Shown here: positions 55,301-58,300 of the stretch, in pieces
Numbering within the stretch: position 1 is the stretch's first letter
Layout of the letters: each line of letters begins with the position of its first letter
From: Escherichia coli
GTDB lineage: Bacteria > Pseudomonadota > Gammaproteobacteria > Enterobacterales > Enterobacteriaceae
Length of the DNA stretch: 64,000 nt
Strand: one strand, 5' to 3'
Assembly (NCBI RefSeq): GCF_050320075.1
Contig: NZ_CP190018.1
Position numbers: made by a program

Positions 55301-58300
55301 CCGTGAGAACTTACTCTTCACCCACCGCGGCTTATCTGGACCGGCGGTGTTGCAAATTTCCAGCTACTGGCAACCGGGTGAATTTGTCAGTATCAATCTG
55401 CTACCGGATGTGGACCTCGAAACCTTCCTGAATGAGCAGCGTAATGCACATCCGAATCAGAGCCTGAAAAACACACTGGCGGTTCATCTACCGAAGCGGT
55501 TGGTTGAACGTTTACAACAACTCGGGCAAATCCCGGATGTTTCGCTAAAACAGCTCAACGTGCGTGACCAACAGGCACTGATTAGCACATTGACCGACTG
55601 GCGCGTACAACCCAACGGCACTGAAGGCTATCGCACTGCCGAAGTGACGCTCGGCGGCGTGGACACCAACGAACTCTCTTCACGGACGATGGAAGCGCGC
55701 AAAGTGCCTGGGCTGTACTTCATCGGCGAAGTGATGGACGTCACCGGTTGGCTGGGGGGCTATAACTTCCAGTGGGCGTGGTCGAGTGCGTGGGCTTGTG
55801 CGCAGGATTTGATTGCATGTCCGAGGACAATAAAGTTGTACACAAAGCACTAAAGTTGTAACCATTCTCAAAAAACGACGCTAATGTTGTATACTTACTG
55901 AATGTGTGGTTATAGGGTTGGAGACTATAAAATACACATATAGGTACGTATCAATGTCGTTTTTAGGGTACGATCATGGCTAGGGGTAGGCGTCTCAAAT
56001 CCTATTTGGATTATGAAAATGCGCTAGGTGACGGCATAGGAGTGGGCTATGGCCAAAGTTATCAGCCCTGGCTTAGAGCTCAGGACGTTAAATCCCGTGG
56101 AAACCGTTCGATAGTCTTTGGCCTTAAGACGTTTCGAAACCATCATCTCCTTTCTTCTGTCGAAAGTAACTTTTTCTATCTGGCTGAGTTTAATGACTCG
56201 GTGATTGATATCCGGGAACAATTCCCACTCTTTCCTCTCCGGCTTACCCAACAAATAGCAAATCATCTACATTTTCAACATCCTATGGTGAGGGGAGTAA
56301 GAGGAGTACCTGTCGAAGTTCTGAATGTTATGACAACCGATTTTTTACTGACCTTGAGAACTCCTGAAGGCGGACTTCGATACAAAGCTATAGCAGTAAA
56401 ACATAACGAGAGCATACCTGAACGCGAAGCCCAAAAACTTGAAATAGAGAGGATGTTTTGGCAGTTGATTGATGTTGAGTTTCAAATTTATGTTGGCTCG
56501 GAACTCAATAACGTCGTCGGTAAAAACATTTGCTGGGCTACTTCTGTATTAAGAGATGGTTCTGAATTTTATGATAAATATCCTCTTGATAAAATCCGGT
56601 AATGACTCCAACTTATTGATAGTGTTTTATGTTCAGATAATGCCCGATGACTTTGTCATGCAGCTCCACCGATTTTGAGAACGACAGCGACTTCCGTCCC
56701 AGCCGTGCCAGGTGCTGCCTCAGATTCAGGTTATGCCGCTCAATTCGCTGCGTATATCGCTTGCTGATTACGTGCAGCTTTCCCTTCAGGCGGGATTCAT
56801 ACAGCGGCCAGCCATCCGTCATCCATATCACCACGTCAAAGGGTGACAGCAGGCTCATAAGACGCCCCAGCGTCGCCATAGTGCGTTCACCGAATACGTG
56901 CGCAACAACCGTCTTCCGGAGCCTGTCATACGCGTAAAACAGCCAGCGCTGGCGCGATTTAGCCCCGACGTATCCCCACTGTTCGTCCATTTCCGCGCAG
57001 ACGATGACGTCACTGCCCGGCTGTATGCGCGAGGTTACCGACTGCGGCCTGAGTTTTTTAAATGGCGGAAAATCGTGTTGAGGCCAACGCCCATAATGCG
57101 GGCAGTTGCCCGGCATCCAACGCCATTCATGGCCATATCAATGATTTTCTGGTGCGTACCGGGTTGAGAAGCGGTGTAAGTGAACTGCAGTTGCCATGTT
57201 TTACGGCAGTGAGAGCAGAGATAGCGCTGATGTCCGGCGGTGCTTTTGCCGTTACGCACCACCCCGTCAGTAGCTGAACAGGAGGGACAGCTGATAGAAA
57301 CAGAAGCCACTGGAGCACCTCAAAAACACCATCATACACTAAATCAGTAAGTTGGCAGCATCACCTGAAACCCGATAATGTACTAGATAAATTCTGGCCT
57401 CAGATGACATCAGAAAGAATCATCTCAAGATCAACCTATCATGACGGAACGCAGGAGAGAAGCGAGCTGGTTGAGATCCTGAGCGACATTGTATCCATGA
57501 CGAGATAATGTATTAAATAAGCATCTCAGGTGCATATATTCCGGTCCTCAACAAAGGACCGGAGTACAGAGTAGTAAAAACCCGAAATTAATCGGGTTTG
57601 AATTATATAAAGATTAACCGACTCCCGCGCCCAGGAACGATGTAAAATCACGCTTGTCGTGACATTTCTACAATGTTTACTTTTGACTATCAAGCCATTT
57701 ATTCATCTGCTCAATTTCACCTTTTTGAGCTTTAATGATGTCCTGCGCGAGCTTTCTCATTTTCGGATCTTTTCCGTATTTGAGCTCGGTCTCAGCCATT
57801 GCTATTGCCCCTTCATGGTGCGCTACCATGCCTTTCGCAAAAGCCTTGTCGGGATCGGACTCATTTACGGCAGCCATCATTTTGTCATGCATGTCTTTCA
57901 TGCCAGCCATATATTCCTGTGACGAAGCCGAGGTAGACATATCAGTCATTTTCATTTCTGAATGTTCTGCTGAAATCGCTGGCAGGGATAACATTAATAC
58001 TGCAAATAAAGTGTTTCTGGCTTTCATAAAAAATATCCTTTTAGCGTTGATGCCCGTTAACTGTAGCAGAATCTGATAAAAATGCCCCTGTAGGGGGCAA
58101 AGATGTTGCCATATATCCGGTTACGGAAAAATCTATCAAGGAAATAAGGACAGCACAGATACTTCCCTCGCCGTCAGCCTGCACTGAGCATGCGACGATG
58201 CGCTTCGGCCATGGCCTGATGTGGGCCAGACTGACCGTTATTCATAAATTCATGGGCAACTGCAGCTCTTTCATGCTCATTCATTGCCGCTAATGACTTC

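What the first reader, a model, noticed from the sequence alone, without database searches (positions are those of the whole stretch)
57366..57676. Orphan 310-bp remnant between IS1 and the DUF305 gene
It contains a short open frame ending ..MTSERIISRSTYHDGTQERSELVEILSDIVSMTR and a hairpin (aaacccgaaattaatcgggttt) but no complete gene. It is probably the 3' tail of the gene lost in the IS1-associated deletion.
Basis: inference. Interest (0 to 1): 0.3.

Follow-up and report, generated by a model that had tools for sequence, protein, structure and literature searches.

The report
Leftover tail of deleted nuclease gene
The 311 bases are the dead last 46 codons of a phage-defence-type (OLD-family) nuclease gene plus its normal downstream spacer, left when an IS1-associated 9.2-kb deletion removed the transposition genes of a well-known copper/silver-resistance transposon; this is ordinary genome decay.

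Summary
IS1 (768 bp) ends at 57365, the copM/DUF305 stop codon starts at 57677, and the 311 bases between them hold no complete gene.

All 311 bases are 100% identical to plasmid R478 (NC_005211, 124726-125036). They consist of:
- the last 2 nt of codon 562, codons 563-608 and the stop of a 608-aa AAA_15 ATPase + OLD-type TOPRIM protein (WP_001239419);
- the native 168-bp spacer between that gene and the convergent copM gene.

Relative to R478, exactly 9,213 bp are missing and replaced by one IS1 that has no target-site duplication. The lost DNA covers tnsA from codon 208, tnsB, tnsC, tnsD, a TniQ-like gene, an HTH gene and OLD codons 1-561.

The suggested identity (TnsD/TniQ) is wrong: the gene is a cargo OLD-family nuclease.

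The quoted hairpin (57578-57599) reads as a stem followed by UUUUU on the minus strand. It stays invariant with copM in diverged sil contexts, so it is most likely copM's terminator. A second, stronger hairpin lies at 57537-57566.

RefSeq already annotates the identical locus as a pseudogene in two E. coli genomes. This is already known and of low interest.

The parts
55818..55975 (+). Left end of the Tn7-like (Tn6230-family) sil/pco transposon. It starts TGTCCGAGGACAATAAAGTTGTA and carries repeated AAAGTTGTA TnsB-site-like motifs. It is inserted at the 3' end of yhiN.
   Evidence: Homology to R478 starts at 55818. The end sequence and repeats were read directly. yhiN-yhiM is the published attachment site (PMC8417528, PMC10121019).
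55976..56597 (+). Truncated tnsA: codons 1-207 of 280 plus 1 nt. It runs into IS1, where the frame closes after one more residue.
   Evidence: Matches R478 L001 2166-2787 at 99.7%. PGAP annotates it as a pseudogene missing its C-terminus in the identical locus.
56598..57365 (-). IS1 (IS1B type), 768 bp, with insA/insB on the minus strand, so IRL abuts the remnant. There is no 9-bp target duplication (ATAAAATCC on the left, TGAAACCCG on the right).
   Evidence: It is the only IS1 copy in the window.
57352..57379 (+). Candidate IS1/flank hybrid promoter: -35 TTGGCA inside IRL, 16-nt spacer, -10 GATAAT in the remnant. This is a consensus match only, with no evidence of function.
   Evidence: 10/12 match, but the number of such sites in the region is not above the shuffle expectation (3 found, 2.0 expected). 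The outward -35 box in the IS1 inverted repeat is known from the literature (PMC8764528, citing Prentki et al. 1986).
57366..57508 (+). 3' remnant of the OLD-family ATPase/nuclease gene: 2 nt of codon 562, codons 563-608 and the stop. It is a pseudogene fragment that lies outside every recognisable domain of the parent protein.
   Evidence: 100% identical to R478 L001 12001-12143. Parent domains: AAA_15 at residues 1-375 and OLD-like TOPRIM at 423-494. The furthest profile match ends at residue 557. The fragment itself has no Pfam hit. PGAP annotates it as a pseudogene missing its N-terminus.
57509..57676 (.). Native 168-bp convergent intergenic spacer between the OLD gene and copM, unchanged relative to R478.
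57537..57566 (+). Hairpin I1 (12-nt arms, 6-nt loop, -19.6 kcal/mol), 29 nt after the OLD stop codon and without a U-tract. It belongs to the OLD-gene side and is probably its 3' stabiliser or terminator structure.
   Evidence: It is kept, with loop-only changes, in the 84%-identical Enterobacter copy L008 and is absent where the upstream gene is different.
57578..57599 (-). On the minus strand it reads as an 8-bp stem followed by UUUUU, 77 nt past the copM stop. It is the probable intrinsic terminator of copM and may act in both directions.
   Evidence: It is invariant in five sil contexts whose flanks are only 73-92% identical, and homology in the HNH-gene contexts starts at 57573-57577, within 5 nt of the stem. 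The consensus scan did not call it a terminator.
57677..58027 (-). copM (DUF305 metallochaperone), intact. It is the first gene of the retained sil/pco cargo.
   Evidence: NCBIfam CopM, E = 5.4e-35. Annotation.

Best explanation
The interval is a non-functional scar. It holds the last 46 codons and stop of a stand-alone OLD-family (ABC-type ATPase + TOPRIM) nuclease gene, followed by that gene's untouched 168-bp spacer to the convergent copM gene. The OLD gene is normally carried as cargo between the tnsABCD/tniQ-like module and the sil operon of the Tn7-like sil/pco transposon (Tn6230 family, as in R478 and pMG101) inserted at yhiN-yhiM.

An IS1-associated deletion of 9,213 bp joined tnsA codon 207 to OLD codon 562, leaving a single IS1 without a target duplication. 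The most likely mechanism is an IS1 adjacent deletion by intramolecular replicative transposition. Homologous recombination between two direct IS1 insertions is the alternative and cannot be told apart here.

The consequences are as follows. The island has lost TnsB, TnsC, TnsD, the TniQ-like protein, the HTH regulator and the nuclease, so it can no longer transpose by itself. The remnant encodes nothing useful. The spacer still provides copM with its terminator hairpin (57578-57599, minus strand).

Shown here: sequence identity, breakpoints, domain content of the parent gene, lack of a target duplication, and conservation of the hairpin. Inferred: the deletion mechanism, the terminator function, and the defence role of the parent gene.
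For: - Identity: 311/311 nt match R478, and 578 plasmid records hold a match.
- Gene order: R478 reads tnsA-tnsB-tnsC-tnsD-hyp-HTH-AAA ATPase, then copM-silE-silS-silR on the opposite strand.
- Breakpoints: window 55818-56597 = L001 2008-2787 and window 57366-58100 = L001 12001-12736, so L001 2788-12000 (9,213 bp) is missing.
- Protein tail: 46/46 identical to residues 563-608.
- Parent protein: AAA_15 (4.3e-67) and OLD-like TOPRIM (1.4e-6) in Pfam; AriA, GajA and Old profiles in PADLOC; distant PDB relatives are PtuA, a class 2 OLD nuclease (6p74) and GajA.
- IS1 flanks ATAAAATCC and TGAAACCCG are not a duplication. IS1 adjacent deletions are known to leave an element without direct repeats (PMC9330008).
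- The identical structure is annotated by PGAP as two pseudogene fragments around IS1B in E. coli YZLc1-3 and Ec-U3.
- The intact OLD gene is present in 666 of 5,426 complete E. coli genomes.
- The element and its yhiN-yhiM site are published (PMC8417528, PMC6211086, PMC10121019).
- Hairpin I2 is invariant and marks the left limit of the sil-module homology.
Against: - No intermediate genome carrying only one of the two junctions was found among 5,426 E. coli genomes. The order of events and the exact deletion mechanism are therefore not established.
- The terminator role of I2 rests on structure and conservation only. The consensus terminator scan did not call it, because 3 of the 5 U's pair within the stem.
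- The anti-phage role of the parent OLD-family gene has not been tested; only profile similarity supports it.
- A promoter-like site spans the IS1/remnant junction, so the fragment may be transcribed.
Confidence: 0.95

Rival explanations
1. The remnant is the 3' tail of a transposition gene (TnsD/TniQ or another tns gene), as the first reader proposed to check.
For: Its position is suggestive: it lies just beyond a truncated tnsA and an IS1, inside a Tn7-like element.
Against: BLASTP of the 46 residues against R478 TnsD gives E = 1.6, and there is no alignment to the TniQ-like protein. The match to the C-terminus of the OLD-family protein is 46/46. In R478, tnsD ends 3.8 kb upstream of this sequence.
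Confidence: 0.01
2. The deletion arose by homologous recombination between two directly repeated IS1 copies, one inserted in tnsA and one in the OLD gene, rather than by a single IS1 making an adjacent deletion.
For: This module is hit by IS1 repeatedly and independently. Examples are an IS1A with its own duplication 7 bp from the window's right junction in strain Ec-RL2-1X, two IS1B copies in KL53, and other IS1 events. The product, one IS1 without a duplication, is the same for both mechanisms.
Against: No genome among 5,426 holds either junction alone. The retained IS1 shows no detectable mosaic, but no parental copies are available for comparison. Neither mechanism is excluded.
Confidence: 0.35
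3. The fragment has gained a new function. The IS1 IRL -35 box plus the GATAAT in the remnant would form a hybrid promoter that transcribes the remnant. The product would be either a 34- or 47-aa peptide or a transcript convergent with copM/silE that modulates their expression.
For: TTGGCA-16 nt-GATAAT matches 10/12 at 57352-57379. IS1 is known to create hybrid promoters through an outward -35 box in its inverted repeat (PMC8764528).
Against: Promoter-like sites are not enriched over shuffles (3 found, 2.0 expected). No Shine-Dalgarno sequence precedes ATG 57404 (the upstream sequence is TTCTGGCCTCAG). Two strong hairpins lie between the site and copM. The sequence is unchanged from the intact gene, so there is no sign of adaptation. 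The arrangement is seen in only 2 of 5,426 genomes.
Confidence: 0.04
4. The interval holds an independent small RNA or cis-regulatory element.
For: The spacer folds much better than shuffles (z = -6.0 on the plus strand and -5.4 on the minus strand).
Against: There is no Rfam family match; the best is rimP leader at 20.9 bits against a gathering score of 47, E = 0.51. The fold is accounted for by two discrete hairpins placed as 3'-end structures of two convergent genes.
Confidence: 0.03

Closest known systems
Tn7-like sil/pco transposon of R478 and pMG101 (Tn6230 family) at the E. coli yhiN-yhiM site
   Same: Same left end, same tnsA 5' part and same copM-silE-silSR-silCFBA cargo at 99.7-100% identity. 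Same chromosomal site next to yhiN (PMC8417528, PMC10121019).
   Different: The window copy lacks 9,213 bp (tnsA 3' part, tnsB, tnsC, tnsD, TniQ-like gene, HTH gene and OLD codons 1-561) and carries IS1 in their place. This form is seen in only 2 of 5,426 complete E. coli genomes.
OLD-family nucleases (P2 Old, class 1 stand-alone OLD, GajA of Gabija, AriA/AriB of PARIS)
   Same: The intact parent gene has the N-terminal ABC-type ATPase (AAA_15) plus a C-terminal OLD-type TOPRIM domain. No helicase partner is annotated next to it in R478, which matches class 1 OLD genes in layout.
   Different: Similarity to solved or characterised members is only distant (PDB E-values 1e-7 to 1e-5). The window keeps only residues 563-608, which lie outside both domains, so nothing of the family's machinery remains.
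IS1-mediated adjacent deletions
   Same: A single retained IS1, loss of the DNA next to one end, and no flanking direct repeat (PMC9330008).
   Different: Nothing unusual. The mechanism cannot be told apart from recombination between two IS1 copies.
Intrinsic (rho-independent) terminators between convergent genes
   Same: Hairpin I2 has an A-tract, an 8-bp stem and a U-tract, sits between two convergent stop codons, and is conserved with copM.
   Different: The stem is short and only moderately GC-rich (4 G-C pairs). It was not called by the consensus scan and has not been mapped experimentally.

Membership tests
OLD-family ATPase/nuclease (parent gene of the remnant) | N-terminal ABC/AAA_15 ATPase domain | tested here: met
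   Met in the intact R478 homologue: PF13175, E = 4.3e-67, residues 1-375. This part is absent from the window (deleted).
OLD-family ATPase/nuclease (parent gene of the remnant) | C-terminal TOPRIM catalytic domain | tested here: met
   Met in the intact homologue: PF20469 OLD-like_TOPRIM at residues 423-494, E = 1.4e-6 for the whole protein and 1.9e-7 for the C-terminal fragment. Not retained in the window, which starts at residue 563.
OLD-family ATPase/nuclease (parent gene of the remnant) | The window fragment is colinear and in frame with the C-terminus of a full-length member | tested here: met
   46/46 residues and 311/311 nt are identical to R478, with the same stop codon and the same downstream spacer.
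OLD-family ATPase/nuclease (parent gene of the remnant) | ATP-dependent nuclease or anti-phage activity | not testable with these tools
   Only profile similarity to GajA, Old and AriA models is available.
   E = 1.6 against R478 TnsD and no alignment to the TniQ-like protein.
IS1 | 768-bp element with about 23-bp terminal inverted repeats and insA/insB with a frameshift | tested here: met
   56598-57365. The ends GGTAATGACTCCAACTTATTGAT and GGTGATGCTGCCAACTTACTGAT are inverted repeats. The insA (91 aa) and insB ORFs are on the minus strand. PGAP names it IS1B.
IS1 | 8-9-bp target-site duplication of a simple insertion | tested here: not met
   The flanks ATAAAATCC and TGAAACCCG differ. This is expected after an adjacent deletion or a recombination between two IS copies, and it does not argue against the element being IS1.
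Tn7-like transposon (Tn6230 family) | TGT...ACA termini with repeated TnsB-binding motifs, a 5-bp target duplication and a fixed attachment site | tested here: met
   The left end is TGTCCGAGGACAATAAAGTTGTA at 55818. In the same genome the right end is ...TACAACTTTAATGTCTCTACACA followed by ATTGC. The left flank reads ATTGC plus one extra A. The site is the 3' end of yhiN, as published (PMC8417528).
Tn7-like transposon (Tn6230 family) | Complete tnsA, tnsB, tnsC and target-selector genes (autonomy) | tested here: not met
   Only tnsA codons 1-207 remain; tnsB, tnsC, tnsD and the TniQ-like gene are deleted. The window holds a non-autonomous derivative.
Intrinsic terminator (hairpin I2) | GC-containing stem-loop directly followed by a U-run on the transcribed strand | tested here: inconclusive
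   On the minus strand the 8-bp stem is followed by a UUUUU run, of which 3 U's pair within the stem; -11.3 kcal/mol. It is invariant across diverged copies. It was not called by the consensus scan, and no transcript-end data are available.

The most novel reading that the evidence does not exclude
The IS1 IRL/remnant junction forms a working hybrid promoter (TTGGCA-16-GATAAT). Its transcript would run through the dead gene tail towards copM/silE, giving this rare deletion lineage altered copper/silver gene expression or a new micro-peptide.
Probability: 0.04. Interest if true: 0.25.

Novelty: already known. Interest (0 to 1): 0.07.

Why it matters
It matters only as bookkeeping. It shows that the chromosomal copper/silver resistance island in this strain is an immobilised, IS1-eroded derivative of a common Tn7-like transposon. 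The island has lost its transposition genes and its OLD-family nuclease but keeps the whole sil cargo seen in the window. This helps when judging whether the metal-resistance island can still move by itself. It adds one more case to the repeated IS1 erosion of this module. It opens no new biological question.

Tried and rejected
- Pfam scan of the 47-aa fragment alone: no family. The fragment lies beyond the last domain match of the parent protein, which ends at residue 557.
- Rfam scan of 57300-57760 at a permissive threshold: only a chance-level rimP-leader hit.
- Consensus terminator scan: it did not call either hairpin. The terminator reading rests on direct folding and conservation instead.
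- Search for an evolutionary intermediate carrying just one of the two IS1 junctions, using 120-nt junction probes against 5,426 E. coli genomes: none found. Only the two genomes with the full window structure hold either junction contiguously.
  - The nearby IS1A in Ec-RL2-1X looked at first like the same right junction. It is offset by 7 bp, has its own duplication and differs at 8 positions in the IS, so it is an independent event.
  - KL53 looked at first as if it shared the left junction. It has an intact tnsA and two IS1B copies elsewhere.
- Fused-PARIS reading of the parent gene: the N-terminus matches a PADLOC AriA profile (4.9e-57), but the C-terminus matches GajA and OLD TOPRIM profiles better than AriB (5.4e-6 against 2.1e-3), and Pfam DUF4435 is not hit. 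I therefore call it OLD-family only.
- Search for other IS1 copies or other copies of the remnant in the window: none.

Full report
**1. What is in the sequence**

IS1 occupies window 56598-57365. It is 768 bp, its ends GGTAATGACTCCAACTTATTGAT and GGTGATGCTGCCAACTTACTGAT are inverted repeats, and insA and insB lie on the minus strand. The minus-strand copM/DUF305 ORF occupies 57677-58027 (NCBIfam CopM, E = 5.4e-35). The finding's interval 57366-57676 is therefore exactly the DNA between IS1 and the copM stop codon, and it is 311 bp long.

A reading frame is open from the IS1 boundary to the TAA at 57506-57508.

There are two inverted repeats:
- I1 at 57537-57566: 12-nt arms, -19.6 kcal/mol, z = -6.0.

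**2. What it is**

The 311 bases are 100% identical to plasmid R478 (NC_005211.1, 124726-125036). They match 578 plasmid records and 677 of 5,426 complete E. coli genomes.

In R478 the stretch covers the end of a 608-aa 'AAA family ATPase' gene (WP_001239419.1, L001 10317-12143) and the 168-bp spacer up to the convergent DUF305/copM gene. The gene order there is tnsA, tnsB, tnsC, tnsD, a 308-aa hypothetical protein, a 99-aa HTH protein and the AAA ATPase. On the opposite strand follow copM, silE, silS and silR, and then silCFBA...silP.

BLAST of the window against R478 gives two blocks:
- window 55818-56597 = L001 2008-2787;
- window 57366-58100 = L001 12001-12736.

So L001 2788-12000, 9,213 bp, is missing from the window and is replaced by IS1.

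The window keeps tnsA codons 1-207 of 280. On the other side it keeps 2 nt of codon 562 plus codons 563-608 and the stop of the ATPase gene. The 46 translated residues are 46/46 identical to the C-terminus of the intact protein.

TnsD gives E = 1.6, and the TniQ-like protein gives no alignment.

**3. The parent gene**

The intact protein has these features:
- Pfam AAA_15 at residues 1-375 (4.3e-67) and OLD-like TOPRIM at residues 423-494.
- PADLOC hits to AriA over the N-terminal ATPase (4.9e-57), and to GajA and Old over the ATPase and TOPRIM parts.
- Solved structures that are only distant relatives: PtuA, the 6p74 class 2 OLD nuclease, and GajA.

No helicase partner is annotated beside it. 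It is thus a stand-alone OLD-family ATPase/nuclease, the kind of gene usually read as anti-phage cargo. Tn7-like elements are known to carry many defence genes (PMC8649781). That role is inferred, not tested.

No profile match extends beyond residue 557. The retained residues 563-608 therefore contain none of the recognisable machinery, and the fragment alone has no Pfam hit.

**4. The element**

The surrounding element is the published Tn7-like sil/pco transposon. It has been shown to move from pMG101 into the E. coli chromosome between yhiN and yhiM (PMC8417528). It is found on plasmids and chromosomes of pig E. coli (PMC6211086). The Tn7-like family that uses this hotspot has been called Tn6230 (PMC10121019).

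Its left end, TGTCCGAGGACAATAAAGTTGTA, starts at window 55818, within the 3' end of yhiN.

**5. How the scar arose**

The 9 nt on either side of IS1 differ (ATAAAATCC and TGAAACCCG). This is not a simple insertion. A single IS1 without direct repeats, sitting next to missing DNA, is the classic product of two mechanisms:
- an IS1 adjacent deletion by intramolecular transposition (PMC9330008);
- recombination between two direct IS1 copies.

I could not separate the two. Probes of 120 nt across each junction found contiguous matches only in the two genomes that have the whole window structure. These are YZLc1-3 (chicken, China) and Ec-U3 (human urine, Burkina Faso). I favour adjacent deletion (about 0.6) over recombination between two IS1 copies (about 0.35).

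In both genomes PGAP already annotates the locus as a tnsA pseudogene, IS1B, and a 'TOPRIM nucleotidyl transferase/hydrolase domain-containing protein, incomplete, missing N-terminus'.

The intact gene is covered at 80% or more in 666 of 5,426 genomes. The window therefore carries a rare decayed form of a very common element.

**6. What the spacer does**

In sil contexts where the gene upstream of copM is a different one (an HNH endonuclease in Klebsiella and Enterobacter IncF plasmids), homology to the window begins at 57573-57577, within 5 nt of hairpin I2. In a five-way alignment whose mean column identity is 72%, the run AAAACCCGAAAT.AATCGGGTTT is invariant except for one loop base.

On the minus strand I2 reads as a stem followed by a UUUUU run (3 of the U's pair within the stem), 77 nt after the copM stop. 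I therefore read I2 as copM's intrinsic terminator, possibly acting in both directions. This is an inference, because the simple consensus scan did not call it.

I1 travels with the OLD gene. It is kept, with loop-only changes, in the 84%-identical Enterobacter copy and is absent in the HNH contexts. It has no U-tract, so it is probably the 3'-end structure of that lost gene.

No Rfam family matches the interval.

**7. Possible residual activity**

A promoter-like site spans the IS1 IRL/remnant junction: TTGGCA, 16 nt, GATAAT, at 57352-57379, matching 10 of 12. IS1 is known to create hybrid promoters through an outward -35 box in its inverted repeat (PMC8764528, citing Prentki et al. 1986).

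Several points argue against a function:
- Such sites are not enriched over shuffles (3 found, 2.0 expected).
- No Shine-Dalgarno sequence precedes ATG 57404.
- Two hairpins stand between the site and copM.
- The sequence is unchanged from the intact gene.

I give this reading about 4%.

**8. Verdict**

It needs two corrections. The lost gene is a cargo OLD-family nuclease, not a tns gene. More than half of the interval is ordinary intergenic DNA whose hairpin serves the neighbouring copM gene.

The structure is already annotated in public genomes and belongs to a well-described element. Novelty: already known. Interest: low.

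Noticed in passing
window 55812-55820 (with L003 1667-1675 and L012 ~6350-6365): One extra A (55817) sits between the 5-bp target duplication ATTGC and the transposon's left end TGTCCGAGG. 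Other genomes read ATTGC|TGTCC, and the right end in the same genome reads ...CTACACA|ATTGC. The extra base changes the yhiN C-terminus: 407 aa here against 400 aa elsewhere, and the same yhiN protein accession appears in YZLc1-3 and Ec-U3.
   Followed up: partly
L003 13227-13998; L004 9009-9776; L005 7084-7851 and 8814-9581; L007 12001-12768 (homologous to window ~56600-57600): IS1 has hit the 10-kb tns/OLD module repeatedly and independently in E. coli:
- an IS1A inside the loop of hairpin I2 with its own duplication, present in at least 22 listed genomes;
- an IS1 joining tnsB' to OLD';
- an IS1A only 7 bp from the window's right junction;
- two IS1B copies in KL53.
This looks like a local IS1 hotspot in AT-rich DNA.
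   Followed up: partly
L001 8175-9101 (R478; deleted from the window): The 308-aa 'hypothetical protein' directly after tnsD has a sub-threshold TniQ match (Pfam E = 6e-4, below the gathering score; PADLOC TniQ 1.2e-5). The intact element may therefore carry a second target-selector protein.
   Followed up: no
window 57620-57640: A third small inverted repeat (CTCCCG..CAGGAA) lies close to the copM stop. One stem position shows a C-G to T-A exchange between two diverged copies (L008 and L009), and the window copy has a C.A mismatch at that position. It also pairs in the minus-strand fold.
   Followed up: no
window 58083-58099, minus strand: A terminator-like hairpin (TGCCCCCTACAGGGGCA followed by TTTTTAT) lies between silE and copM. 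This suggests that copM is transcribed separately from silE.
   Followed up: no
L012 3485-7803 (same genome as the window structure, beyond the window's right edge): The right side of the island is also eroded in strain YZLc1-3. An ISCro1 (IS66 family) sits after pcoE, and the flanking yhiM (DUF2776) gene is truncated by another IS1.
   Followed up: no
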